A stretch of DNA of 64,000 nt, taken from assembly GCA_951406725.2 (NCBI GenBank), contig OX597827.1:30442001-30506000 (forward strand), written 5' to 3'. This document shows positions 613-57,924 of the stretch, piece after piece. Below the pieces are notes generated by a model. That model had not been told where the DNA came from, did not search any database, and worked only from the letters and a program-made list of their open reading frames with translations. Position numbers and translations under genes: made by a program. This DNA comes from Octopus vulgaris. Lineage: Eukaryota. Numbering within the stretch: position 1 is the first letter of the stretch; every line of letters begins with the position of its first letter.

Positions 613-1093
613 CCTTCTATTTATAAATGTTCTAAAATCTTCACAGCCTTGGTTTTTTATCTCTTTCTGAAAAAAAAAATATATATATATATATATATAC
701 ATACACACACTGGAATATTTTTAAGTACTATAACAGAAACTAATACTTGACTAAAATTTTGTAAAAAAAATTAAACTTGAATTAAAATTTAAAATTAAAT
801 GAAATTCAAGTGATTCTATCACTTAGAAAAATTATTTTAAAACTGAAATTCAAACTTAGGGTAAAATTTATTGTGTTTTAAAAAAATCAAATGGAAATGT
901 GAATTTCAAATTGAAATGAAAAAGAGTTTTCATTTTAAATTTTGAATCTTCCTTCTACTCCGTCTTACCCTCTCAGTACAGTTTTCTTTTTAAATATCTC
1001 AGCTTTATTAATTTAAAATTATAAATAAAAAATGATAAAAATTTATATGCTAAATAATTTTTTTCCCTATTTTTTGTTGGGCTGTTACCTCAG

Positions 1094-1308
1094 TTTAATG
1101 CATGCTTGCATCTGTGACAATCTTCAAGCTGCAAAGGTCCTGCATAGAAATGGTGCACCTTTTGAAGATTTTGATTTCGGTGGATCTAGTCCACTACATC
1201 ATGCTGTTGACAGTGGCAGCTGCGAGATCATATCGTGGATGATAAGGGTTGGAGCAGATGTGGACATTCGAGACAAAAATGCTGCTTGGACTCCACTGAT
1301 GCGATGTG
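1094..1308 (+). CDS. FANK1: FANK1-like paralog A, ankyrin-repeat coding exon (215 bp)
   Basis: CTCAG acceptor and G|GTAAGT donor. Encodes LMHAC...GGSSPLHHAVDSG...GADVDIRD..WTPLMRC, resembling the FANK1 LMLAC...GGCTALHWAADGG...GWTPLMR segment. Confidence 0.9.
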
Positions 1309-2190
1309 GTAAGTTCTAAGTGTAGTTTGATTCCTTTTATTCTTTTCAAAGTATTGTAAAACATGTGAGGATAGGTTGTTCATGTGTGTGCAAGTGAGAG
1401 TATACACATGTGCATAACAGTAGAATTTAAGAATTACAGGATTACACCTACTTCATTCAGAATTGCAGAATTACATCTACTTCATTCCATTAGACATTTG
1501 TATGCTCATTAAGAACTGTGGTGTATAATCATCAAACGATGCACAAACAAATGTAAAGATGGCCATCTTTGTATTCATTAGAGAATCATAAATAAAACAA
1601 GTTCAAAGCTGCTATTACTATCTAGAAAAATTTCTATATTTGATATAACCACAATTGCTTCTATAAATATGGTAATGTTTAGTTGCAGAAACAGAAATTC
1701 ATGCTAGTAATAATATGTCAAACACATATTTCCCAATATCTTCTATCATCATCTTGATCATTATAGAAGAAAAAAATGAATGTGTAAATAATAATAAAGG
1801 TTTTATATTTTGGCACAAGGTCAGCAATTTAAGGGAGGAGGTAAGTCAATACCAACCCCCAAGGTTCAAGTGATACTTGTTTTATAGACCCCAAAAGAAT
1901 GATAGGTAAAGTCAACCTAAGTGGCATTTGAACTCAGGACAGAAGAAATACTGCTAAGCATTTTGTCCAGCAGGCTAATGATTCTGATAGTCTGCTGCCT
2001 TATAAATAATAATAATAATAATAATAATGACACTAATATGGTGCTTATTGTAAACAGTGCTCAGTGCACTACGACTCATCAGAAAAGGTTAAATAAGAAG
2101 ATGGAAAGACAGCAATGGAAGCTAGAAAGACATACAGAGACCATAGAATAAAACAGAAAAAGATAGAAAAGTGAACAGTAAATAGGTGTA

Positions 2191-20460: not shown

Positions 20461-20954
20461 GTTGTATTATATAATTTTACTTAAGTCTAAGAATTTCATT
20501 TTTACCCCACTTGGAGTAATTTACCGTTTGCCGATCCCTCCGACTTAGATAATTAACATGTGTCATTAAAAATGTGAAAGTAAAGTGCACTCGACCTGAT
20601 GAGTTACGCAGGAAAATGTTTGCTAAATTAAAATCCTAGATTATGCGCGAAATACTTTGGCTCATTATAATTGTGGTGTCGGTGGAGAGGACGACAGATA
20701 AGGGAGGGCGGAAGCAGGGCGCATGCGCAGGAGGAAGCAGAAGTGGTGAAGCAGCACGCACGTGTGGGATCAACGAAGCGGGCAGTTCGAGCTGAGACGA
20801 CGAAGCGACTAGACGCATTGACTTTGCTGAGAGAGATCTGATCTTCGCTGAGGTAAGGCCCATTGTATTTCCTTCTCTTTTTCTGTTGTCCTCTTCATCC
20901 GTCACACTACAAGCTATTTTGGCATATAAATAAAAACAAAAACAAAAAAAACGA

Positions 20955-21711
20955 ATGATGCGTGCCCGTATTTCGCACGAAATTATAAAACCGTTTTGCG
21001 GCGACACGGATGTAATCGCTTGGCTGAAGAAAGTGAAGTTGGTGGCGAAGCTCCATGGTATAAGTGACCTGGCGAGCTTCATGTCGCTGTACTTGGATGG
21101 TCCAGTGTTGGCGCTGTATTTAGAGATGGAGGAGACAGACTAACTCAGCGCAGAGAAAGTGGAAATCCGGTTGATGGAGTCCTTTGCGGAGGGAATGTTT
21201 GAGGCATATGGTCGCTTGGGTAGAACAAGATGGACTGGGCAACAGGTGGATGTGTTTGCCAATGAACTTAGGAGATTGGCTAAACTGGTGGGTTACGAGG
21301 GAGAGTCGCTGGACCGGACGGTTAGGTTGGTGTTCGTGACTGGCTTTCTTGACAACATGTCGGTCGAGCTACAGCAGCTTCCGAATGTGCATTCGATGCC
21401 GTTGGCGGACATCATATCTTGGGCACGCGTATTAGTTTTGTGCAGCAAGACGACGTCGGTAGCAGCGACTGCAACATTGAAAAGTGGCCGAGCTAGGAGC
21501 AGCGGAGAGGGGCCGAAGAAAGAACATGTGCGACCGTTCAAAGGACAGTGTTTCCGGTGCCAAGGTCCAAACATGGTGCGTGACTGTGTCACCCAAGCCT
21601 GAGGTGATTTGCTACCGGTGTCGAGAACCGGGGCATATAGCCAGCGAATGTCTGCGGGGAAACAGACTGCGGGAGACTACTGCGCCGGTAGTTGTCCCTT
21701 CGGACCAGTAG
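20955..21711 (+). pseudogene. Gypsy gag (stop at 21141, frameshift near 21600)
   Basis: Two Zn knuckles, CFRCQGPNMVRDC (degenerate) and CYRCREPGHIASEC. Confidence 0.85.
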
Positions 21712-24488
21712 AGGCGCGTTTATCGTTGCTACCTGTGGTCGACATTCTGGTGGAGGGGAAGATGTCGCGAGCCCTTGTGGACACGGGCTGTACGACAACC
21801 CTGATGACTACAGAAGTGGCAGAGACGTGGAGTGGAGAAAGCAGTGTTAGAGCTGTCGACGGAAGAGAAGTACACTGTGAAGGCGTTACAGATGCACGGA
21901 TTGTAGTGCAGGGACTACAGCTGATGCTGCGAGCGATTGTGGTTGGTCACTTGGTGGACGAGATCGACGTGGTGATGGGGATGGATGCAATCACCTGCTT
22001 GGGAGGTGTCACCGTTAACGAGGCTGGTGTAACATTTGGGTTAGCGGGGAAACCATGCACCGGCGACAACCGTGAGGAAAGGCATGCTGCGCACACCATT
22101 GAAGACCAGGATTTTCGGGCTGTCTTTGATGGCAAGAGGTGGACAGTGGAGTGGCACTGGAAGGGAGAGCCCCCGATGTTAAAGAATAAAGTGGGCTGCT
22201 ATCAGCATACTCTAAAAGGAGAAGCCAGAAGTGAGTTCGAAGGGAGGTGGAGCAGTGGATTAAGGAGGGCATATTGATCCCTTGGGAAAAAGAAGAGAGC
22301 AGAGTCCTGCCACTGATGGCGGTGATACAGCCCACAAAGCATAAGGTCAGGCCAGTGCTTGACTTCCGAGAGCTGAATGACCACGTATCATGTCATACAG
22401 GCGGCGAGGCCACGGATGTCTGCGGAGACACCTTGTGAGAGTGGAGGCAGATGACAGGGGTCTCCACGATTGTTGATTTGAAGTTGGCATACCTATAGGT
22501 GCATGTGGCTGAGAAATTGTGGAAGTACCAGCTCGTCAGGTATAAGGGCTGGACGTACTGTCTGACCAGGTTGGGGTTCGGGCTGAATTCAGCGCCAAAG
22601 ATTATGGCAACAATTCTCAAGGCCATCCTGGGAAAGGTGGACAGAGTAAAAAGGGCCACCAATTCGTACATCGATGACATTCTGGTGGATGAAACCGTAA
22701 TACCAGCAATGGAGGTCATAGGCCACCTGAAGAGTTTTGGACTGATCGCCAAGCCACCAGAGGCAATGGAGGGAGGTGCTGCACCGGGCCTCAAGCTATG
22801 GAGAGACAAGGCCGGTGCATTGGTGTTCTGGCGAGGGAATGAGGTCCCTGAACTGGGCGCCAGCATGAGTAGACAGGAACTGTTCTCTGCGTGTGGGAAG
22901 CTGGTGGATTGCAGGTTGGCTCCGGACAGCATGTAGCTTTATCAAGAGACGAGCCAAAGGAGTGAAGTGGAATGATAGAGTGGGGGAGAAGACGATTGAC
23001 ATGATGCAGGAAGTCTTGGTCAGAGTAGGAGCAGAGGACCCAGTGAGGGGCAGCTGGTATGTTCCCAAATCAAAGAGCGGGAATGTATGGTGTGACGCCA
23101 GTAGCATCGCAACAGGGGTTGTCTTAGAAGTGGGAGGTGTCATGGTGGAAGATGCGGCCTGGCTCAGGAAGATGGATGATTGCAATCATATCAACGTGGC
23201 GGAGTTGGATGCCGTGCTGAAGGGGGTGAACCTAGCTTTGAAGTGGGGGTTGCACACCATAGAAATCAGGACTGATTCGGCCACTGTACTTGGTTGGGTG
23301 ACAGCAGTCATCACCGATGAGCGGAGGGTGTGGACCAAAGGGGCTGCAGAGATGCTGGTAAAGCGTCGATTAAGAATACTGCGTGAACTAACCACTGAGT
23401 TCAATCTGAAGCTGAGCGTGATCTTTGTGCCTTCCGAGAAGAACAGGGCAGACGTCCTGACCAGGGTAAAGCGAGCCTGGTTGCAGGTGCCAGAGGATGC
23501 GAAGCAGGATGTAGCTGCAGTATGCCATCTGAGCGACTCGGAGTTGCGGAGACTGCACACCATGCATCACATGGGTGTGGACAGGACATTGTTCCTAGCC
23601 AGAAAAGTTGACTCCGATGTAACAAGACAGAGCGTGCAGAGAGTGGTTAGCAGTTGTGACAGGTGCCAGTCCATCGACCCTGCTCCGGGCGTACATGAAG
23701 CGGGAAGTATTCCAGTGGACCAGGACTGGAAACGACTGGCGGTGGACATAACACACTACCGGCAGGGGACATACCTCTCAATGGTTGACTGCGGACCGGG
23801 GCGGTTGGCCATATGGAGAGAGATGAAGACGGGGACAGCAGAAGAAATTGTGAAAGTATTGAATGAGATATTCCTGGAACGAGGCCCCATGGATGAACTG
23901 CTTCTGGATAATGGCACTGCATTTCGCTCGGATGTGCTGAAAGAAATGCTTGATGGGTGGAAGGTCAACTGCTTCTTCAGGGCGGCATACCGGCCAAGTG
24001 GAAATGGGGTGGTGGAAAGGCATCATCGTACCATCAAGGCCATGGCGGAGAGGGGTCACATTTCACCAATCGAGGCTATATTTTGGTACAATATGTCGCC
24101 CAGATCAGGACAGGCTGAGGAGTCGGTGCCACACAGGGCAATATTCAGGTACGAGTGGAGGCATCTGTGTACTGCATCAATGCGACCCGGGGCAGAGGAA
24201 GAGCACGCCTTCGTGCAGGTTGGGGAAGAAGTTTGGGTAAAAACCCCAAACGCACGGTGTACATCACAATGGGGAAAGGGGACAATAACCTCTGTAAATT
24301 CAAAGAATAACATCTCGGTCGATGGTATGCCACGCCACGTTTTGGATATACAGAGAATTGTCCATGCCTCAGAGGATGGGACCAGCAGCAGTGGGCAAGA
24401 TGAAAACAACACCAGTAGACAGGATGATGAGGCCAGCAGCAACATGCCAGGAACCAGTCCTAGGGTCGCACTGCGACCACAGAGGTAA
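21712..24488 (+). pseudogene. Gypsy pol (protease, RT, RNase H, integrase) with stops and frameshifts
   Basis: ALVDTGC; RPVLDFRELN, LGFGLNSAP, YIDDI; WCDASS, AELDA, TDS, NRAD; HH-CC, LAVD, LLDNG, GVVER. Confidence 0.92.
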
Positions 24489-25261
24489 CGGCACCCTCCT
24501 CCCTGGTTGGCTGATTATGAAACCAGTTAAGGTGTGAGTTCGGGAGCGGGGAGCGAGTGAGAAAGCCGGTTCAGTGATCTGTAGATCAGGGGGGCATGTG
24601 GTGTCGGTGGAGAGGACGACAGAAAAGGGAGGGCGGAAGTAGGGCTTGCACTACAATAATGCAATGGATATTAACAGGGATGTTAGTTTAGGTTATATAT
24701 CGAGTTGAAAACCATTCTTTAAATTTTGTTGATCCAGTCATGAAAGCATCCATACATAGACTATCGAAGGATAGTAGGCTCCGCTCCAAGAAGAAACTAA
24801 GGTGACAATGCAGAACAAATGATGCTTTATTATGTAAAAGTATGGATCCGGAAATGAAAATTCCCCCCATAAAAAAATATTGGAATGGGTGTAAAACAAC
24901 GGGTAGGAAACGAATATGAAAAAAAAAGCAATGGGAGGGTGGGAAGTGGACTTCGGAAAATTCACAACATCCAAACTTTTCCCTCCAATGAAATTTTATA
25001 GAAATATTTTTCAAGCGTCATACATTACTATTATAAAGAAATTTGTCGAAAAAATCTTTTCCAAGGGGGTGGGGTAAGGACTTCGGAAAATTCACAAAAT
25101 ACCTTTGAAATGGCATACATTAAGACTATAAAGTAATTTGTGGGGAAAATCTTGAGGTGGGTAGAGGACTTTCAGAAAATTCCCAAGATCTGAATTTTTC
25201 TTCGTTATATTCCAAAATCACATTCAACTTTCTACAGATACTACTACACTACGCAGTTTTT

Positions 25262-42869: not shown

Positions 42870-43227
42870 ATTTCCAGTGCCAGTGCTACCTGACTGGTCC
42901 TGTGCTAGTGGCACATAAAAAGCACCATTCAGCATGGTCATTCCCAGTGCTACGTGACTGGCTCCTGTGTCGGTGGCGTGTAAAAAGCACCATTTGAGCG
43001 TGTTTGATGCCAATACCACCTAACTGGCCCTCATGCCAGTGGTACATAAAAAGCACCTACTACACTCTTGGAGTGGTTGGCGTTGGGAAGGACATCCAGC
43101 TGTAGAAACTCTGCCAGATCAGATTGGAGCCTGGTGCAGCCTCCTGGCTGCCAGCTCTCAATCAAACCGTCCAACCCATGCCAGCATGGAAAGCGGACGT
43201 TAAACAATGATGATGATGATGATGATC
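42870..43227 (+). mobile_element. Short RTE-type 3' end with three units of the 67-bp repeat and a (GAT)n tail
   Basis: GGCACATAAAAAGCACC units followed by GAGTGGTTGGCGTT..GGACGTTAAAC(GAT)n. It ends 22 bp before FANK1-B exon 4. Confidence 0.8.
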
Positions 43228-43249
43228 ACTTTCTCTTTCTTTTATTCAG

Positions 43250-43331
43250 AAGAACCATACTATGGAGAGAACTTGCATAAAGCTGTGCGAAACCAATCTA
43301 TGGGTGAAATTAAAACTGTTCTAAGCTCTGG
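43250..43331 (+). CDS. FANK1: FANK1-like paralog B, exon 4 (82 bp)
   Basis: Pyrimidine tract plus TTCAG, and a GG|GTAAAG donor. Encodes KEPYYGENLHKAVRNQSMGEIKTVLSSG (FANK1 REPISSEHLHRAV-like). Confidence 0.85.
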
Positions 43332-44107: not shown

Positions 44108-44518
44108 GTAAGTATCCATTGTGTATATACAGTTTCAAGTGCCTAGTGCTGAAATGAAACAGCAGAATAAGATAACTACTTGCTCATATGCTTTTGTGTT
44201 CAAATCCACTTTAGATATTTTGTTGTATGTTTGGACAATTCTAGTCTCCCTCAGTTTACCTAGATACCAGAAATAAAAGTCAGATCATGTACAAATGCTA
44301 CTGTTACATAAGATAAACTGACATATATCCTGAGGTGGACATCAACATGTGGTTGTGAAATCAAATATTCTTTTATATGTTCCAGCCCAAAGGCTGTGAC
44401 CATGTTGGAGCAAGATTTCTTGGTAACACACAACACACTAAATGAGCTTATCTGATTATTGTGTTTTCACAGCATGAAGTTAATAGTAGCTTCAATTTAA
44501 ATATTGTGTGTGTGTATA

Positions 44519-46147
44519 CAGTTGCGGCTAAAATGTTCAGAACGGCATTGTTTTCATCAGAAAAGTAAGTATAAGTTTTTATCAAAGTAGTTTTATATTC
44601 TATAATTTTCACAGAGGATAAATACAATATTAATTGTTATTGTCTGAGATTTTGGTGTAATTTGAGAGGATAATATAAAAGTTATGAATGATTTAGTGAT
44701 TTACTGCAAAACCCATGGCGGCCAAAATGATCAGAACGATTGAAGAAATAACAAAATAATCAAAAATGACAGAGAATACTGGAATTATTTAATATTTAGT
44801 GTGAAGCCCTTTAGCTTCAATCACACTATGACATCTTCGACTGCATGAGGAAATTAAATTTTCAATTTCTTGTTGGGTGATCTTATTCCATTCTTCCTGA
44901 AGGGCATTCCATAATTGCTCAGCTGTGTTAGGATTTTTGGCTTTCGAACGTTCTCCTAGAATATTCCATACATTTTCAATAGGATTGAGATCTGGGCTTT
45001 GAGCAGGCCAATCCATAACAATAACCTTTTCAGGCTTGAGGAAGTTCATAACCACCTTAGCCTTGTGACATGGGGCATTGTCCTGCATGAATATGGGTGG
45101 TCGCTTAGTTGAATTTCTCAGCACAGGCAAGACATGATCTTTTACAAGTTGTTTATAAACTCTTGCATTTACCTTTCCATCTAATCGCACCAAAGGGCCC
45201 ACACCATCTCCAGATATCATCCCCCAAACCATGACACTTCCTCCACTGAATTTAACACTAGTCTTAAGGCATTTAGGCGACAATTTTTCACCTACTTTTG
45301 TACAAACGTACCTTTTCCCATCTGAGCCAAATAACATAAACTTAGATTCATCACTAAAATGCACCGTTTGCCATTTTTCTTGAGACCACAACACATGTTC
45401 GGTTGCAAAGGTAAGACGACACTTTTTATTCTTGGAGCTGATCAGTGACTTCACTGCAGGTGCTCTTGCTTGTAGGTCATGTTCAACTAAACGACGAGAC
45501 ACAGTTTTTCGAGATAAAGTTTTCTTCAATACAATGCTCATTTTCTGAGAAGCAGCAGCAGCAGTTTTAAATCTGTCCTTTTTAACCAACTTTACCATAG
45601 CATGATCTTCTCTCTTGGTCATTTTTCTTGGCCTACCTGTAAACTTTCTTGCTTCACACGAACCACAACCATCGTAGACCTTAAGAATACCGTGTACAAC
45701 ACTTTTTGACTTGTTAACAATCTTTGCAATAGATCCAATACTTAAATTATCCTTCCTTCAAAGTTTAATAATCTGCTGACGAATTGGTAACGGAGTAAGT
45801 GGCATTATATTAACAAAGTACACTGCAAATATTCTTACTAATGTTTAGTAAACGAACCGTCACATAAACAAATTCAAAACATTAGAGTTCACCGGTTAAA
45901 TATACTAAAACACGGAGTAAAAGCAACCGTTCTGATCATTTTGGCCGCCATGGGTTTTGCAGTAAATCACTAAATTATTCATAACTTTTGTATTATCCTC
46001 TCAAATTACACCAAAATCTCAGGCAATAACAAATAATATCGTATTTATTGTCTGTGAAAATTATAGAATATAAAACAACTTTGATAAAAAATCATATCTA
46101 CTTTTCTGACAAAAACAATGCCGTTCTGAACATTTTGGCTGCCACTG
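44519..46147 (-). mobile_element. IR/DR-type Tc1 transposon, nearly intact
   Basis: TA TSDs and ~220-bp TIRs, each with outer and inner direct repeats (GC.GCCAAAATG.TCAGAACG). Confidence 0.95.
44789..45805 (-). pseudogene. Tc1 DD34E transposase with one in-frame stop (codon 16)
   Basis: ATG at 45805 and TGA at 45760-45758, then open through GRPRK, FSDESK, MQDNA-34aa-E, SPDLNPIENVW and GLHTKY-stop. Confidence 0.92.
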
Positions 46148-46164
46148 TATATATATATATATAT

Positions 46165-48021: not shown

Positions 48022-49097
48022 TGCTAGAATGGAACCGATATATCAATTCAATCTATACTCTTACAAACGCTACACCTTTAAAAAGAAACGGACTTGTTTG
48101 ATTGGCCCTTTAGAAAAAACAGTCAATCTTCGAGCGATAAACAAAAAGGTCAAAAATATATGTATATATATATAAAAAAACTTATAAAAATTATAAAATC
48201 CGAGGAAAAAACCTTACATTGAATAAAATACATATTGACGTTAATGAAGAAAGTGCAAATTAATGCATAGAAATTAAACCTGTTATAAATATTACACTGC
48301 AATACATATTTATATTAAAATCTACATATATATATCAACATACACAAAAGGATGCGCGCAAACGCCATACATATACAGACGTATGAATATAAATCTAAAT
48401 ATACACATAAAATGCATGTGTACATATATTCACGCAAACCATCTCGCACGCAAGCTAAAAATCATCTATGTAGCGATTCTCATATACTGAGTAATGGGGG
48501 GGAACGAAAGAAAGGGAGAGAGAGAAAAAGGAACGAAGGAGGGGTGGGGAAAAAAACGAAATAAGAAAAAATTATGTATACAAGCAGTGTAACGGCATTA
48601 TTGGCATATATGGAGACAAGTATACATACACAAGTTCGAATGGATACATATACATACAGTCGTGTATATGTGTGCTTAAGCACAAACATACTTTCACTTA
48701 CACATACACAGATACGCATGCTTACAAATACATATGCTTTGCTATACACATACTTATATCAACATTCTAATTTTGACAACATTGCTTTTTTTAAAAAAAA
48801 CATTGCTTTTTTTTTAAAAAAATGGGTGCATTAATAAAAATATATACGAAAGACATAAAATAAAATATAACATCCTATTTTGGGTCATTTATAAATAATC
48901 AAGGTAATATAAATAATCAAGGTAATCCTATACAATACAATAACATGAAAACAAAGTTGGAGGTTTTTCCTAATATATATGTAGAAACATAAGACTTTGC
49001 TATACGGATTAAGATCCGCATAGCTTGGAAACAAAATCCATTGTAGGGCTCATCGTTCAAGAGTCAAAATCAAAATCAAAAATACAAAATATATACT

Positions 49098-50105
49098 CTA
49101 TCCATATGGTATATTTATATTCAACATTTTAAATTTAGCCGCGTGCCTACATAAGTTCATTAGCTCACTTCTTTGATTCAAAGAATTATTGTCTTTGAAT
49201 AAGATGTACATTTTTTCTAATAGACAAAGCTTGCACTTGAAATTATTTTTGTATGCTCCATGCCTGTATGGTGCTGCCCTGTCCAGAATGCTCCATGTCA
49301 CGTTGAAAGGTGGGGCTTCCTTTTCTTTTAGTTCCCAGACATATTTTGCTAGGCTGGTTTTCTTCCTATTCTCTGGGTATTTAAATGAATTTTTATGAGA
49401 ATAAAATCTTGTTTTAAATGAATTTTCTGAAGCCCCTGTGTATGTCTTGTATTCCGATGAGCCTTCCACTTGCACCTTGGCTCTATAAACTACTCCTTTC
49501 ACTAGACATTTCCCTTCTAACGGACAGGAGCTTTCGTTTTTGCAATTACATTTCTTAATGGGCTCGGCACCATGTCTAATCTCAATTAGCTTCCTATTAT
49601 GTTGGCTAATGTAAGAGGCGAAATTTCTGCAACAAGAATAGCTAACCTTCAGGGTTCTTCTGTTAAATATCCTATAGAATTTATGACCCTGCTTAAAATG
49701 CTTAGAGACTAATCTCAAAAATTCCTTACCTATATTAGTCTTTACGGACTTATTGAAAGCCGGGTTGAACCACAAAACTTTCCTGGTCCTAGTTCTTCGT
49801 GCAGCATTATTATCAGCATTAAGCTGGTTGAACTGGATCTTCTCAGAGAATCCACTATCCTTTAATGCGCTATCGTAATAAGGTGCAGCATTATGGAATG
49901 CTGCCTCGTCCGAAGAAATTGAAGATATTCTTCTACCTACATTGCTGACTAAGTTCCTAAGGATAACTGGTGGATGGTTCGAATCTTTGCTAATATACGA
50001 TAGCTTTTCATTGGGCTTACGGAAAGGTTTAAATCTATCCGATCTTACATTAAAATTTACGTCTAAAAAATCTACACTATTCAGGTTAGCATCTATCGTA
50101 ACCCG
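49098..50105 (-). pseudogene. Penelope-like RT-thumb plus GIY-YIG ORF fragment, uninterrupted
   Basis: VDFLDV, KPFRKP, SNHPP, WFNPAF, KVSYSC, CNC..CPLEGKC, GVVY..TYTG, FKTRF..H, CKLCLLEK, LNQRSEL..CRH. Confidence 0.9.
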
Positions 50106-50142
50106 TAAAAAAAAATATTGACATTTTTATGCTTTTATATAT

Positions 50143-52429
50143 CCGGGGGAGAGGTAGACCCAGGAAGACATGGGATGAGGTAGTCAAGCATGACCTCAGA
50201 GCGTTGGGCCTCACTGAGGCAGTGGCTAAGGACCGAGATCTCTGGAGATGTGCTGTGACTACTAAGACCCGGGATGCTTCCGGCACCAGTTCCGCATACC
50301 CCCTGCCCATTCAAAGTACCTTGGATCCCGGAACATCTCACTGTGCTTGAGGAGACCTGTTGAGTCAAGTGCATATACATGAACATCGAACCAAATATCA
50401 ATGGAAACAGTAGCTTTGATACCTGTGCCGATGACACATAAAAAGCACCATCCGAACGTGGCCGTTGCCAGTGCAGCCTCGACTGGCTTCTGTGCTGGTG
50501 GCACACAAAAAGCACCATCCGAACGTGGACCGATGCCAACCCCGCCTCGAATGGCTTCTGTGCCTGTGGCACATAAAAAGCACCATCCGAACGTGGCTGA
50601 TGCCAGCACCACCTCGACTGGCTTCTGTGCCGGTGGCACATAAAAAGCACCAACCGATCGTAGGATCCCGGAACATCTCGCTGTTCTTGCACCAACCAAT
50701 CAATGGAAACAGTAGTTGTGATACCTGTGCTGGTGACACATAAAAAGCACCATCTGAACGTGGCCATTGCCAGTGCAGCCTCCACTGGCTTCTGTGCCGG
50801 TGGCACATAAAAAGTACCATCCGAATGTGACCGATGCCAACCTTGCCTCGAATGGCTTCTGTGTCGGTGGCACATAAAAAGCACCATCCGAACGTGGCCG
50901 ATGCCAGCACTGCCCCGACTGGCTTCTGTGCCGGTGGCACATAAAAAGCATCATCCGAACGTGGCCAACGCCAGCACCGCCTCGACTGGCTTCTGTGCCA
51001 GTGGCACATAAAAAGCACCAACCGATCGTGGGATCCCGGAACATCTCGCTGTGCTTGAGGAGACCTGTTGAGTCAAGTGCATGTACATGAACATCGAACC
51101 AAATATCAATGGAAACAGTAGCTGTGATACCTGTGCCGGTGACACATAAAAAGCACCATCCAAACGTGGCCGTTGTAAGTGCAGCCTCGACTGGCTTCTG
51201 TGCTGGTGGCACACAAAAAGCACCATCCGAACGTGGACCGATGCCAACCCCGCCTCGAATGGCTTCTGTGCCTGTGGCACATAAAAAGCACCATCCGAAC
51301 GTGGCCGATGCCAGCACCGCCCCGACTGGCTTCTGTGCCGATGGCACATAAAAAGCACCATCCGAACGTGGCCGATGCCAGCACCACCTCGACTGGCTTC
51401 TGTGCCGGTGGCACATAAAAAGCACCAACCGATCGTAGGATCCCGGAACATCTCACTGTTCTTGCACCAACCAATCAATGGAAACAGTAGTTGTGATACC
51501 TGTGCTGGTGACACATAAAAAGCACCATCCGAACGTGGCCATTGCCAGTGCAGCCTCGACTGGCTTCTGTGCCGGTGGCACATAAAAAGCACCATCACAA
51601 CGTGACCGATGCCAACCCTGCCTCGAATGGCTTTTGTGCCGGTGGCACATAAAAAGCACCATCCGAACGTGGCCGATGCCAGCACCGCCCCGACTGGCTT
51701 CTGTGCCGGTGGCACATAAAAAGCACCATCCAAACGTGGCCAACGCCAGCACCGCCTCGACTGGCTTCTGTGCCGGTGGCACATAAAAAGCACCATCCGA
51801 ACGTGGGATCCCGGAACATCTCGCTGTGCTTGAGGAGACCTGTTGAGTCAAGTGCATGTACATGAACATCGAACCAAATATCAATGGAAACAGTAGTTGT
51901 GATACCTGTGCCGGTGACACATAAAAAGCACCATCCGAATGTGGCCGTTGCCAGTGCAGCCTCCACTGGCTTCTGTGCCGGTGGCACATAAAAAGCACCA
52001 TCCGAACGTGACCGATGCCAACCCCGCCTCGAATGGCTTCTGTGCCGGTGGCACATATAAAGCACCATCCGAACGTGCCCGATGCCAGCACCGCCCCGAC
52101 TGGCTTCTGTGTCGGTTGCACATAAAAAGCACCATCCAAACGTGGCCGATGCCAGCACCGCCTTGACTGGCTTCTGTGCCGGTGGCATATAAAAAAGCAC
52201 CAACTGATCGTGGCCGATGCCAGACCCCTCTGGCACCTGTGCAGGTGGCACGTAAAAAGCACCCACTACACTCGCGGAGTGGTTGGCGTTAGGAAGGGCA
52301 TCCAGCTGTAGAAACACTGCCAGATCAGACTGGAGCCTGGGGCAGCCCCTGGCTCCCCAGACCCCGGTCGAACCGTCCAACCCGTGCTAGCGCGGAAAAC
52401 GGACGTTAAACGATGATGATGATGATGAT
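50143..52429 (+). mobile_element. 5'-truncated RTE-clade LINE with an expanded tandem-repeat 3' UTR
   Basis: C-terminal RGRPRKTWDEVVKHDLRALGLTEAVAKDRDLWR, then the repeat array, then GGACGTTAAAC(GAT)n tail. Confidence 0.88.
50323..52263 (+). repeat. 67-bp unit array (25 copies) in five higher-order blocks
   Basis: Core TGTGCCGGTGGCACATAAAAAGCACC counted 25 times. Block headers GGATCCCGGAACATCTC at 50323, 50663, 51031, 51438 and 51806. Confidence 0.93.
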
Positions 52430-52693
52430 ATATTAGACAGAATGAGATAACAAATCCAAGGCTGTGAGGAGTTTTCAGGACATTTATAATGAAATAGTCT
52501 TACAACTGTTTCGGGGATATCCCAGAAATATTCCTAAAATATATGTGTGTGTGTGTAATTGAAAAAATGTTTAGAGATCTATTCAAATCAAATTTATATA
52601 TATAAAAATGATGGAGGTGGAAATAGCATAGAATTAAGTCTAAGATATTTTCAGTTCAAGAGGGAATTTAATAAAAGGTCATATAAATAAAAA

Positions 52694-52741
52694 TACTAAT
52701 ATTACCAGTTTCGATGTATTTCATCTTATCAAATATTAGTA
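52694..52741 (-). ncRNA. Decayed minimal hammerhead motif
   Basis: TACTAATAT-TTGATAA-GATG(AAATA)CATC-GAAA-CTGG-TA-ATATTAGTA: perfect 9-bp stem I and 4-bp stem II, with two core transitions away from CTGATGA. Confidence 0.55.
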
Positions 52742-52895
52742 AAAATTTGAAGTAAAAACAGTCTATCTTCTGTCTGGTTGCCAAGAACATGTCTGTAGAT
52801 TTTTCGTTGAAGTCTTCTTTAAATATAGTTTGGTGTAGAGTTCAAAGTGTTAGAGAGTGAGAGAAGATAACTACACTACATCCTTTGTATTTCAG

Positions 52896-52961
52896 TATTA
52901 TGGAGATGCTGTTATCCTTCAATGCTTCTGTCGATACTAAAGATGAGTCAGGAAAAACAGC
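52896..52961 (+). CDS. FANK1: FANK1-like paralog B, exon 6 (66 bp)
   Basis: TTTCAG acceptor and GC|GTAAGT donor. Encodes IMEMLLSFNASVDTKDESGKTA. Confidence 0.88.
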
Positions 52962-53860
52962 GTAAGTATTTAGAATATCTTGTTTTATTTTGTGTTGGGG
53001 AGATAGGTCTTGTTACATTAGAGCAGTAGTAGTAACTACTCAAAACTTTGCAGTAGCTAACTTCTGTCACTAGATTTTATTGCCATCTGTAGTAAAATAC
53101 TAATTTGGAAAAAGAAGTTTAGGGTGATCTTTTTCTAGATACACACATATGATTTGTAATGAATGATTCTTATGCTTTCAGAACAAAAAAAAACAAAAAA
53201 ACCCTGAGTTTCAGTAGCAGATAATAGCACCTTCAAGACCAGGGGAAGCATATATTTATGCTGATGCTTGCAGGAGTAAATTCAACAGATGTTATGGAAT
53301 TTTAAGTGAGTAGTAGTGAACATAACACATTTGGGTTTTCAACAGTGAAAATGCCAGCATATCATTCAGAAGTAAGTTCTGCACACTCTTTGTGGCCTGT
53401 TTTGAGATTATGAAGGGAACAATCTGGAGAGTGGTGCTTTTGTTCCAAATACACATATTTCCAGAACACTTTATTATCCTGGTTGGTTTTCTTTTTAATC
53501 AGTTGCTTGATATGGTTTTATCAGCCCCTCACTATCTATCTATATCAAGCTATATATAGCTATGTTATGGCCAAACTTACAACTTGTTTCTCCAGTCTAG
53601 AACTCAAATTCAAATTGAATATGATAAAGAGAAAATAGCATTTAAATTTCAGTTTGAAAAACAAAAATAAATTCAGTACTTTAATAAAATTTTAAATTTC
53701 AGTTTCACTTATCTTCTTCAAAACTCGTCTCTGGCTTTCCTGTTTAGTGAAATATCTCAGTTTCATTAAAACAAATTTTCAAAATAGAAGCACATATGTA
53801 AAAGAAAGCATATATGAAATAACGTTTTTTTTTTTTTTTTTTTTTGTGGTGTTATCTCAG

Positions 53861-54075
53861 TTTAATGCATGCCTGCTTCCATGGCCAGTTACCAGCTGTG
53901 AAGATACTGATTGCTCATGGTGCACTCTTTGATGATTATGATTTGGGTGGATCTAGTGCAATTCATTATGCCATTGACAGCTGCAACTGTGAGCTCATCG
54001 AGTGGATTTTCAAGTCAGGAGCAGATGTAAACTGTCGAGACAGAAATGCTGGCTGGACTCCATTGATGCGGTGTG
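53861..54075 (+). CDS. FANK1: FANK1-like paralog B, exon 7 (215 bp)
   Basis: CTCAG acceptor and G|GTGAGT donor. Encodes LMHACFHGQLPAVKILIAHGA...GGSSAIHYAIDS...GADVNCRDRNAGWTPLMRC. Confidence 0.9.
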
Positions 54076-54420
54076 GTGAGTTTTGTGTTTATAATTTGAT
54101 CATTTTCTTCTTCCTTTTACAAACTCGTTGGGAAGCACATGCGTGTATGTGTGTGTGTGTGTTTGCATGACTGTAGAGTTTCAGGTTTATGTACAGAGTT
54201 ATATCTGCTTCATCCAGCCAGACATCTGTATGTCGTATCTGCAGCTAAGGATGCACATCAAGGACTGGGATGTATGATTATGCACAGAGGTGAAGATGAC
54301 CATTATATTGAGTGGAAAACCATAAATAAAATGAATTCAAATCATCTTTTATTTTCTAGAAAAAATTCTCTATTTGATTTAACTACAATTGCTTATATAT
54401 ATATATATATATATATATAT

Positions 54421-54995
54421 CATCATCATTATATAATGTCTGTTGTCCATAGTGGCATGGGTTGGACAGTTTGACCAGGGCTGGTAAGCCGGAAGGCTGC
54501 ACCAGACTCCAGTTTGATTTGGCATGGTTTTCTACAGCTGGATGTCCTTCCTAATGCCAACCACTCTGAGAGTGTAGTGGGTGCTTTTACATGCCAACAG
54601 CACGAGTGCCATTTGTGTGACACCGGTATCTTCCACAGCAGCAATTTTGCTTGACTTGATGGGTCTTCTGCTCAAGCATGACATAGTGCCAAAGGTCTTT
54701 GTCATTGCCTCCATGAGGCCCATTGCTCGGAAGGAATTCAGCCACTTTACCTCCGAGAGGTCCACCACTCGTAAGGAACCCAGCCACTTTGCCTCTGTGA
54801 GGACCCAATGCTTGAAAGGAACTCACCCACTTTACCTCCGTGAAACCCAATACTTGTAGGAAACTCAGCCACTCTGCCTCCAGTTGAAAGAAACTCAGCC
54901 ACTTTGCCTCTGTGAGGCCCAACACTCAAAAGGAACTGTTTGGACAGTGTCCTTTGCATGCCACCGGCAATGGTGCCAGTTATGTGACACCAACA
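54421..54995 (-). mobile_element. RTE-type 3' end, decayed, with an internal ~30-bp tandem repeat
   Basis: Reverse complement of the RTE tail. About six AGGAACTCAGCCACTTTGCCTC-like units at 54730-54915. Confidence 0.75.
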
Positions 54996-56169
54996 TCAGC
55001 CATAGAAATTCATGGTGACAGCATATTGCAAGGTCAAGTAATCATTGTATTATATTCTCATTGTATTAAACTTGTACTAAATATTTTTCAGCATGCTCCT
55101 TTATCATATTATCCACCATCAACAACTTTGGCCACCTTTTTGAATTCAGTACCTCTATTAACCATGAACATGCTTATAAAAGTCAATAAACAGCACAACA
55201 CTCATGACTTTCAGGAGCATTTTTTCTCATACTTAAAATTGTCAAAACTTAGAATAAACTGCATCAGTTGTTAGCTATAAAGACAATGCATCCTTAAAAA
55301 ACTCCATACTTCCTGAAATTCACCTACACTACACTTGACAGGCCAATGTACCTTTTCCTCTTCTTTATGACTCTCTTAATGCTCTCTTTTCTGTCTTTTT
55401 GTGTTTTATTCTGTGTTCTATGCATGCACTTCTTGCTTCCATTGCTTTCTTTCTGTACTTGACTTCTACGCCTGCTTTCTGTTCCCATTTTAACTCTTTT
55501 CAGACAAGTTGTAGTGCACCTGAGCACTGTATTTGAGGAACAAGCTCATTATTATTGAGTAAGAGTGCAGCACATGCTGTCAAAGTGATATTGGGGTACT
55601 AATATATAAAGCCCAATATACCCATCATGACTACCTGTCTGATAAAGGCTCACCAGGTACATATATCACAACCATATGTGCACAACATAGTGATCTCATG
55701 CCAAGATAAACAATATATGACCTTGCAGGTGAAACCCAATTAGAATTTTTTTCAGGTTGATTAGCCCATTCTGCTCAAAAGGTCCTTGAATAAGGTTTGT
55801 TAAAGGATGATGAATGAAACATCCATTCAAACACTAAAGAATCCTTCTTAACACATGACTATGAAGCTTCTCCACTATTCCTGCTTATGATAAGAGATGC
55901 ACATATTATCAGCCACTATGGGACACCTTCAACTGGTTAAGGTTAAGCAATTGACAAGCAAATCTGTGGTATTGAGCAGAATATTTGCTGCAGCCCATCT
56001 TTTACACCAAGATAAAACGTACATGATAACACTTCCAATGTAGAAACAAGATAAAGCCAGTGTAACATGTACATAAATTTGCCAAAACAATGGGTTGTCC
56101 CCACAAATATTGCGTTTAAATAAAGATCATAGAGAAACCAATTTCCAGCCATAGAAAATGTACATTCTT

Positions 56170-57760
56170 CACCAGAAAATCCTCGGAATTTTACAGGAAG
56201 TCCCCAAATCCTCGGAACTTTCCAGGAAGTGCCCAAATACCCTGCACTTTCCAGGAAATCCTCATATTCACGGAACTTTCCAGGAAGTCCCCAAATCCTC
56301 GGAACTCTCCAGGAAATCATCGGAATTTTCCAGGAAGAACATCCTCAGAACTTTCCTGAAAGTTCCCAAATCATCGGAGGTTTCCAGGAAATCCCCCAAA
56401 TCCTCGGAATTTTCCAGGAAGTCCCATCCTCGTGACTTTCCAGGAAGCCCCCAGATCCTCGGAATTTTCCAGGGAGTCTCAACACCGGAACTTTCCAGGA
56501 AATCTCAAACTCGGAACTTTCAAGGAAGTCCCCAAATCCTTGGAACTTTCCAGATAATTTCATCCCCAACCTAGGAAGTCTTTCTCAGGACTTTCCAGAT
56601 AATTTCGTCGTCTCTTGGAACTTTCTTGGTAAGTTCGTCCCCACTAGCTGAACTTTCATGGAAGCTATCTCCCTCGGAACTTTCCAGGAAGTCTTCATCC
56701 TCGGAACTTTTCAGTTAATTTCGTCGCCATCCTCGGAACTTTCCAGGTAATTTCATCCCCAACCTCGGGACTTTCCGGGAAATCGTCCTCGGGAGTTTCT
56801 AAGAAGTCTTCCCCCTACTCGGAACTTTCCAGGAAGTCTCCCCCAATCGGAACTTTCCTGGTAATTTCGGCCCCAGTCTCGTAACTGCCCAGGTAATTTC
56901 GTCCCCATCCTCGAAGCTTTCTAGGAAGTTCTTGGAACTTTCCAGGGAGTCTTCCACATCCTCGGAACTTTCCAGGTAATTTCGCCCCCAGCCTCATAAC
57001 TTTCCAGGAAGTCTTCACCTACTTGAACTTTTCCCCAAAATTTCATCCTGAACCTCGAAACTTTCCAGGAAGTCCTCTCTTCAAGATTTTCCAGGAAATC
57101 ATTTCACTTCCTTGGAAATATTCAGGTAATCTCGTCCCCGTTCTTGAACTTTCCCAGGTAATCTTTCTCCATCCTTGAAACTTTCCAGGAAGCCCTCCCC
57201 CTCCTCGGAACTTTCCATCAAGGCCCCTCCTCCACTTCTTTGGAACTTTACAAGACGCCCTTCCCAACCTTGGAACTTTCCAGGGAGTCATTCTCTCCCC
57301 TCAGAACTTTCCAGAATGTCCTTCTCTTCTTCGGAACTTTCCGGGATATACTCCCCCTCCTTCCCTTTGTTGGATTTAAGATCAAAAGCCATCAGCGCTA
57401 CTGCCTGAGGAAGGACTTCCTGGAAAAGTTCATGGAGGTGGCCGCACTACTTCTGGGATGATATACATTTTGGAAAGTAAAGATTTCCTGTAAAGAGGTG
57501 CGGAAGGAACTTCCTGCTAAGTTTTGATGATAGAGAAGGACATGCTGGAAAGTTCCAAGGATGATGATGTGATTACCTTGAAAATCCCAAAGACTTCCTG
57601 GAAAGTTCTGAGGGTATTAACTTCCTGGAAATTCCTAGGAGGGGAAGGGTGTTCTTGGAAAGTTCCTATGATAGGGTGGAGACATCCTGGAATGGATGAG
57701 GAGGGACTTCCTGGAAATTTCCAAGATGGGGAGGAGGAGTGGGACTTCCTGGAAAGTTCA
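56170..57760. repeat. Degenerate ~30-bp minisatellite (CCTCGGAACTTTCCAGGAA core) that switches orientation near 57380
   Basis: Forward units at 56170-57350 and reverse units (GACTTCCTGGAAAGTTC) at 57410-57760. Confidence 0.9.
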
Positions 57761-57924
57761 TGTGCCGTTTATCCTGAAATGAGATCATTATGTCGCACAC
57801 ATATGGTTGTGATGAATGTGCCTGATGTACCCTTATGTCATGATGGGTATACTGAGATTCCTATATTTTACTTTAGTGTCACTTTGATGGCATGCACTTC
57901 TCTCAGTAATAATAATTATTATTA

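What the first reader, a model, noticed from the sequence alone, without database searches (positions are those of the whole stretch)
50323..52263. Array of 25 putative compact H-type pseudoknots alternating with hairpins in an RTE 3' UTR, organised as higher-order repeats
Seen: each 67-bp unit has a nearly invariant core UGUGC-C-GGUG-GCACA-UAAAAAG-CACC and a more variable spacer carrying a GCCAG...CUGGC hairpin. The core can be drawn as a textbook H-type pseudoknot (5-bp S1, 1-nt L1, 4-bp S2, A-rich 7-nt loop). The predicted unpaired L1 base is one that varies (C/T/A). Units are grouped in five blocks with alternating long and short headers (periods 708 and 775 bp). Smaller relatives at 42870 (3 units) and 54575 (minus strand) show that copy number is plastic. 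Known: this geometry resembles luteoviral frameshift pseudoknots, and LINE RTs recognise 3' UTR structures. Inference: this is a multimerised structured-RNA module (RT-binding platform, nuclease block or protein sponge) that sits in the sense strand of the FANK1-B pre-mRNA.
Basis: partly seen in the sequence, partly recalled or inferred. Interest (0 to 1): 0.72.

Follow-up and report, generated by a model that had tools for sequence, protein, structure and literature searches.

The report
Minisatellite of an RTE tail pseudoknot
The 25 repeats are decaying tandem copies inside the tail of one copy of a very common jumping gene; only the last copy is strictly conserved, and it likely folds into a small RNA knot that likely serves the element's own RNA, while the long array is likely a passive by-product of local DNA duplication.

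Summary
The array is real: 25 cores in five blocks (4,5,5,5,6), two-block periods 708 and 775 bp. It is the 3' UTR of a 5'-truncated copy of an abundant RTE-type LINE. Sister copies carry 2 to 33 cores, most often 5.

A working array of 25 pseudoknots is not supported. Only 15 of 25 cores can form both stems. The 'variable L1 base' is half of a CpG, and its S2-paired neighbour mutates as often (12 vs 10 of 194 units), uncompensated. Neighbouring cores are predicted to pair with each other instead. The youngest intact sister family keeps one perfect core and one ruined one (8 of 8 copies). The short header exists only at this locus, so the higher-order repeat likely arose here.

The single terminal core has modest support as a pseudoknot: related tail families keep it, with pairing-compatible S2 changes, but the covariation statistics are weak. 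The motif just downstream lies in hagfish RTE 5' UTRs. This scan has noted the same module on other DNA of this genome.

The parts
50141..50350 (+). C-terminal remnant of an RTE-type LINE ORF (5'-truncated at about 50141; stop TGA 50348-50350)
   Evidence: Translation; 96-98% DNA identity to 39 other best-scored copies, matches start at query base 7-12; sisters continue into an RT domain
50324..50663 (+). Block 1: long header plus 4 cores
50664..51031 (+). Block 2: short (internally deleted) header plus 5 cores
   Evidence: the short-header junction occurs only twice in the genome, both in this array
51032..51438 (+). Block 3: long header plus 5 cores; duplicate of block 1 (8 mismatches in 340 aligned bases)
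51439..51806 (+). Block 4: short header plus 5 cores; duplicate of block 2 (16 mismatches in 368)
51807..52263 (+). Block 5: long header plus 6 cores, including the terminal one
52202..52237 (+). Last spacer with a 6-7 bp hairpin whose pairs differ in a compensated way between families
   Evidence: fold; variants read by eye
52238..52263 (+). Terminal core, predicted H-type pseudoknot (5-bp S1 with one G-U pair, L1 = A, 4-bp S2, 7-nt A-rich loop); the conserved copy
   Evidence: identical in 8 of 8 intact young sister copies; all four S2 pairs kept in 29 of 29 closest copies
52264..52411 (+). Conserved tail: small hairpin 52269-52281, motif 52281-52306 that also lies in hagfish RTE 5' UTRs, then the 3' end
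   Evidence: PMC7245038 supplement 2
52412..52429 (+). (GAT)6 terminal microsatellite; no clear target-site duplication
42870..43230 (+). Older relative with 3 cores at 65-bp spacing and the same tail
54411..54930 (-). Older relative (family B): two cores, and an array of a different 42-bp unit resembling the ORF end
43250..43331 (+). Likely host-gene exon upstream (AG..GT borders, open frame)
53861..54075 (+). Host-gene exon downstream, ankyrin repeats; places the element in sense orientation in an intron

Best explanation
The array is the 3' UTR of one 5'-truncated RTE-type LINE copy, in which a short unit holding a predicted pseudoknot core was multiplied, likely passively, and only the last core likely works. 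Shown: the family carries a variable number of units, some block junctions are shared by many loci, the short header is private to this locus, and the internal cores decay at CpG sites without compensation. Inferred: source elements already carried about 5-10 units in one or two blocks; after insertion, a deletion and a 0.7-0.8 kb unequal-crossover or slippage duplication made the 25-unit higher-order repeat. Inferred: the terminal core is the 5' edge of a roughly 170-nt structured cis module (knot, hairpin, conserved motif, 3' end) that the element's own protein needs on its RNA; part of it is homologous to an RTE 5' UTR piece.
For: Copy number 2 to at least 20 in 29 sisters, most often 5 after nine copies sharing one flank are collapsed; up to 33. 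Two header re-entry junctions recur in 15 and 11 loci (19 and 14 events). The short-header 26-mer has 2 exact hits genome-wide, both here. Blocks 1/3 and 2/4 share private variants. A sister copy 9% diverged from its siblings holds 21 units with 5 mismatches in 1170 bases (L281), which shows expansion after insertion. Family B expands a different 42-bp unit and family C the bare core. C6>T 12 and G7>A 10 of 194 units, similar to most spacer CpG sites; all 21 G7>A among 276 internal units are uncompensated. Over three units the free fold is -56.8 kcal/mol against -38 to -41 for knots plus hairpins. 8 of 8 intact young copies have one perfect terminal core and an upstream core without S2. Family-level S2 changes are compatible: G7-C26 to A-U (26 of 28, family D2), G8-C25 to G-U (26 of 28, D1), and base 11 either pairs in S1 (G) or extends S2 (C).
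Against: Covariation statistics are weak: score reached by 12 of 500 shuffles, and 5 pairs with two-sided change against 5.5 in shuffles; relatedness inflates even this. The S1 core pairs show no family-level change, and several two-sided changes can arise through CpG decay. For the internal core a 6-bp hairpin (-7.8) beats my rough knot estimate (-5.5 to -6.3, penalties recalled, no tertiary terms). Internal cores show fewer lineage-level variants than spacers (0 of 26 vs 7 of 41), which hints at constraint or homogenisation in source elements. No binding or probing data exist here. No target-site duplication was found.
Confidence: 0.65

Rival explanations
1. The array is passive as above, but the core is a sequence motif or simple hairpin, not a pseudoknot; the second helix is a coincidence of the internally repeated GUG/CAC words.
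For: The 6-bp hairpin is the predicted minimum for the internal core. 124 of 5000 shuffles allow such a knot. Pair-type counts do not exceed shuffles. The two-sided S2 change is one event. A 1-nt loop across a 4-bp helix is tight (recalled, not tested).
Against: The terminal core has A at position 6 in 29 of 29 closest copies, which removes the competing sixth hairpin pair. Similarity between families begins at about the S1 5' strand (read by eye). No family majority breaks S2 except at the CpG position 7 in family C.
Confidence: 0.22
2. One reading: a selected, multimerised structured-RNA module that raises RT avidity, blocks nucleases or sponges proteins, possibly acting in the host pre-mRNA.
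For: Multi-block UTRs were retrotransposed, since junctions are shared across loci. Cores are more uniform than spacers. The spacer hairpin shows compensated differences between families (by eye).
Against: 10 of 25 cores cannot form both stems. Cores are predicted to pair with their neighbours. The youngest intact family has one good core. Other families amplify other units. About 50 such tails occur per Mb (30 in 600 kb), so an intronic position is expected by chance.
Confidence: 0.08
3. The whole 25-unit array was written in one step by reverse-transcriptase template jumps during this insertion.
For: Junctions show 3-5 nt microhomology between spacer or core and header. Block duplicates differ by 2.4-4.3%, compatible with an age close to the insertion.
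Against: The recurring junctions are identical across loci, which fits inheritance. Blocks 1/3 and 2/4 share private point changes and a private deletion. Near-identical arrays in old copies show post-insertion growth.
Confidence: 0.05

Closest known systems
RTE-clade LINEs of octopus, e.g. RTE-2_OV (Petrosino et al. 2022, PMC9115989; section 6, passages, 2 of 8 supplement files looked into)
   Same: Single ORF of about 1,100 aa with EN, RT and a zinc finger (1109 aa there; 1095-1114 aa stop to stop in the young sisters here); repeat-filled 3' UTR (about 600 nt there; similar for 5-core copies here).
   Different: The paper calls the UTR repeat a microsatellite and gives no structure. Its sequence was not found in the files searched (PMC13282606 says it was not reported), so identity with this family is untested.
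Tandem repeats in the 3' UTR of Ogre/Tat LTR retrotransposons that expand into satellites (Vondrak et al. 2019, PMC7004042; abstract and passages)
   Same: [quoted passage not shown]
   Different: Here the carrier is a LINE in an animal, the arrays seen are at most a few kb, and the unit derives from a conserved structured cis motif.
Bipartite RTE derivatives and RTE-derived SINE bodies (Kojima 2018, PMC5786205; Kojima 2020, PMC7245038; passages and supplement searches)
   Same: [quoted passage not shown]
   Different: Here it sits in the 3' UTR of the autonomous element and was not found in its 5' region. The core sequence itself was not found in either supplement. It is not the Ceph-domain piece. 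By eye, hagfish RTE-2_EBu has a different knot-compatible sequence just upstream of the motif (not computed).
Stringent LINE 3' recognition structures (Ohshima 2013, PMC3747384; passages)
   Same: A structured 3' tail shared by a LINE and several non-autonomous families.
   Different: The examples in the passages read are stem-loops at the 3' end; this predicted knot lies about 150 nt upstream of it.
Luteoviral -1 frameshift pseudoknots (BWYV, PLRV, ScYLV, PEMV-1; PMC6007934 passages, geometry recalled)
   Same: Compact H-type topology on paper, 5-bp S1, A-rich last loop.
   Different: Non-coding position after the stop codon, 4-bp S2 and 1-nt L1 (recalled: 3 bp and 2 nt), no Rfam match, tertiary contacts unknown.

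Membership tests
RTE-clade LINE | Single long ORF with endonuclease and RT | tested here: met
   Pfam RVT_1 E=2e-20 in a sister; 1095-1114 aa open frames in 8 young sisters, endonuclease start recognised by eye only
RTE-clade LINE | 3' end in short microsatellite; frequent 5' truncation | tested here: met
   (GAT)n ends in all families printed; this copy is truncated at about 50141
RTE-clade LINE | RT phylogeny places it in the RTE clade | not tested
   No tree was built; the clade label rests on ORF layout, the shared hagfish RTE motif and PMC9115989
RTE-clade LINE | Target-site duplication | tested here: inconclusive
   No shared word longer than 7 nt between the flanks; another element remnant abuts the 5' junction
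Retrotransposon-derived minisatellite (Ogre-like route) | Variable tandem array downstream of the ORF, monomer differing between families | tested here: met
Retrotransposon-derived minisatellite (Ogre-like route) | Expansion after insertion | tested here: met
   L281 homogeneity; private junction duplicated here
Ogre/Tat elements | LTR retrotransposon with gag-pol | tested here: not met
   LINE ORF layout and (GAT)n end
Luteoviral frameshift pseudoknot | Lies in translated RNA downstream of a slippery heptamer | tested here: not met
   All cores lie after the stop at 50348-50350; no slippery site seen upstream of cores (by eye)
Luteoviral frameshift pseudoknot | Loop-stem base triples and quadruples | not testable with these tools
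   Needs probing or a structure
H-type pseudoknot (terminal core) | Both helices supported by covariation | tested here: inconclusive
   One two-sided change, one wobble and one helix extension in S2; statistics weak
H-type pseudoknot (internal cores) | Favoured over competing folds in context | tested here: not met
   Each knot would need about -11.7 kcal/mol to tie with inter-unit pairing; no pseudoknot-aware folder was available
Bipartite RTE tail | RTE 5' UTR piece joined to an RTE 3' end | tested here: met
   Motif found by string search in hagfish RTE 5' UTRs; extent of homology judged by eye
Exoribonuclease-resistant RNA | Blocks XRN1 | not testable with these tools
   No Rfam match at E<=1 apart from one chance snoRNA hit outside the array

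The most novel reading that the evidence does not exclude
An RTE lineage moved a structured leader module from the 5' UTR to the 3' UTR and uses a compact pseudoknot there as its protein-recognition signal; one sub-lineage raised its retrotransposition by stacking 5-10 copies, making a tunable-avidity LINE tail.
Probability: 0.08. Interest if true: 0.65.

Novelty: new variant of a known kind. Interest (0 to 1): 0.28.

Why it matters
RNA recognition by RTE-clade proteins is poorly defined (recalled). A 26-nt core that is shared by LINE and SINE-like tails present at roughly 50 per Mb gives a small, directly testable candidate signal with natural compensatory variants. The locus also shows how a LINE tail seeds minisatellites and higher-order repeats. 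The 25-fold array itself most likely means nothing for the host gene.

Tried and rejected
Rfam scan of 49000-56000: no credible match. Two metagenome pattern scans for relatives in other animals: 0 hits each. Full-text search for the tail motif: 0 papers in main texts. Topic searches listed no paper whose title or abstract start describes this knot or array; subscription journals, Repbase and Ohshima & Okada 1994 were not available, and six of eight supplements of PMC9115989 were not opened. Meta and Ceph domains were considered: PMC4824008 passages gave no link and no sequence was compared; the Ceph 3' half is a different sequence. Sequencing runs: no RNA holder listed on record; laying three DNA runs and one guessed RNA run on 52270-53200 gave almost no cover of the unique flank, so insertion polymorphism and expression stay open. 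A-to-I editing trace: no A>G excess among rare variants (8 at 15 sites vs 11 T>C at 11 sites). One search used a mis-registered structure string and is dropped; one search replaces it. The script stopped after 17 of 20 loci. The core counter is loose, so counts are used. Two pseudoknot papers were not held, so loop penalties and BWYV geometry are recalled. Search of earlier findings by sequence returned nothing.

Full report
Observation. The described sequence is there. A fuzzy scan finds 25 cores between 50424 and 52263 in blocks of 4, 5, 5, 5 and 6. Headers alternate long and short, and the two-block periods are 708, 775 and 775 bp. On paper the core gives S1 = bases 1-5/11-15, L1 = base 6, S2 = 7-10/23-26 and a 7-nt A-rich loop. 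124 of 5000 shuffles of one unit allow such a knot. Only 15 of the 25 cores can form both stems, and 13 of 20 spacers have the perfect 5-bp hairpin.

Context. The window lies in a 2.8-Gb genome, probably an octopus (inferred from size and repeat content). The array is the 3' UTR of a LINE copy truncated at about 50141. Its ORF ends at 50348-50350, and the element ends in (GAT)6 at 52412-52429. Both ends match dozens of scored copies at 96-98% among thousands of candidates. Sisters run into an RT domain with a weak PHD-type finger. In 60 evenly spaced 10-kb samples there were 30 tails and 25 cores. The element lies in sense orientation between + strand exons, the downstream one encoding ankyrin repeats; the name FANK1 was not tested.

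How the array arose. Among 29 sisters the core number runs from 2 to at least 20, most often 5 once nine copies with one shared flank are counted once; one copy has 33. These sisters were picked as best hits, so this is not an unbiased distribution. Two junctions that re-enter the header recur in 15 and 11 loci, so multi-block UTRs were carried by source elements. The short header is private: its junction has two exact matches in the genome, both here. Blocks 1/3 and 2/4 differ by 8 of 340 and 16 of 368 bases and share private changes. The simplest order is insertion of a multi-block copy, a local deletion, then a 0.7-0.8 kb duplication (inferred). Growth after insertion is shown elsewhere: L281 is 9% diverged from 28 siblings yet holds 21 units with 5 mismatches in 1170 bases. 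Other families expand other units: a 42-bp piece resembling the ORF end (family B), the bare core (family C), or a 100-bp core-plus-motif dimer (family D).

The internal cores. Base 6 and base 7 form a CpG. C6>T occurs in 12 and G7>A in 10 of 194 non-first units, similar to most spacer CpG sites. All 21 G7>A changes among 276 internal units leave an A-C mismatch in S2. First cores carry A11, breaking the fifth S1 pair, in 77 of 94 cases. The first 15 bases are nearly palindromic, so neighbouring cores are predicted to pair with each other: -56.8 kcal/mol over three units against -38 to -41 for knots plus hairpins. In the knot-free ensemble of the whole array S1 has probability under 0.3 in 22 of 25 cores. 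These figures lack tertiary terms and folding kinetics, and the knot penalties are recalled.

The terminal core. The youngest sister family (99% identity between copies, 1095-1114 aa open frames) keeps the terminal core letter for letter in 8 of 8 copies, while its only upstream core has lost S2. So one core goes with recent activity. Across families A, B, C, D1 and D2 the majority changes in S2 are compatible with pairing: G7-C26 becomes A-U in D2 (26 of 28), G8-C25 becomes G-U in D1 (26 of 28), and base 11 is G (pairs in S1) or C (extends S2). In family C position 7 is mostly A, as expected from CpG decay. Families E and F also keep a compatible core behind unrelated upstream sequence (by eye). 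The terminal core of family A has A6, which removes the competing hairpin pair (29 of 29). On 51 distinct copies the formal test is weak: 82.9% paired against 80.9% shuffled, covariation score reached by 12 of 500 shuffles, and 5 two-sided pairs against 5.5. I put the knot at about even odds or slightly better for the terminal copy.

Origin of the module. [quoted passage not shown] It was not found in the 5' regions of the octopus copies tested, and the core string was not found in the two Kojima supplements. The tail therefore looks bipartite, in the sense of PMC5786205. Whether the module now serves RNA recognition, translation or neither is untested; recognition is my best guess, because non-autonomous-looking families share it (stringent model in PMC3747384).

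Comparison and verdict. It works like the Ogre 3' UTR repeats that expand into satellites (PMC7004042), but on a LINE. An octopus RTE with a repeat-filled 3' UTR is already published (PMC9115989), though identity could not be checked. It is not a luteoviral frameshift element. Earlier agents of this scan reached similar readings on other DNA of this genome; these are not independent support. The array is best read as a passive minisatellite with a local higher-order duplication. The interesting residue is one conserved, knot-compatible 26-mer. Interest 0.28.

Noticed in passing
window 49098-50126 (-): 342-aa open frame abutting the 5' junction; looks by eye like the C-terminal RT part plus GIY-YIG nuclease of a Penelope-like element (label recalled; no Pfam hit).
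   Followed up: partly
L335-L342 (e.g. G000:C9:82166900-82175900): Young RTE copies with intact 1095-1114 aa frames; their 5' regions hold variable tandem repeats (about 34 bp and about 350 bp) and the ORF end holds a variable number of short peptide repeats; the stop codon lies inside the ruined upstream core.
   Followed up: partly
L281 (G000:C14:71983713-71987050): At least 21 nearly identical 65-bp units in an old copy; a recently grown minisatellite that may run beyond the locus.
   Followed up: partly
L044, L045, L048, L049, L050, L052, L053, L054, L060: Nine 2-core copies on different chromosomes share the same unrelated upstream flank, so one chimeric insertion was itself multiplied.
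   Followed up: no
L202-L230: A family whose tail duplicates the 100-bp core-hairpin-motif module, the two copies differing by compatible S2 changes.
   Followed up: partly
window 1044-1670 vs 53811-54404: Paralogous ankyrin exon (58% amino-acid identity): the host gene is tandemly duplicated.
   Followed up: partly
window 44515-46151: Tc1/mariner-type element with 228-bp inverted ends and a 322-aa transposase frame.
   Followed up: no
window 20672-24645: Element with short direct terminal repeats and protease-, RNase H- and integrase-like frames (labels by eye).
   Followed up: no
window 56179-57361: Degenerate 26-32 bp tandem arrays, with a related stretch in inverted orientation near 57545-57916.
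   Followed up: no
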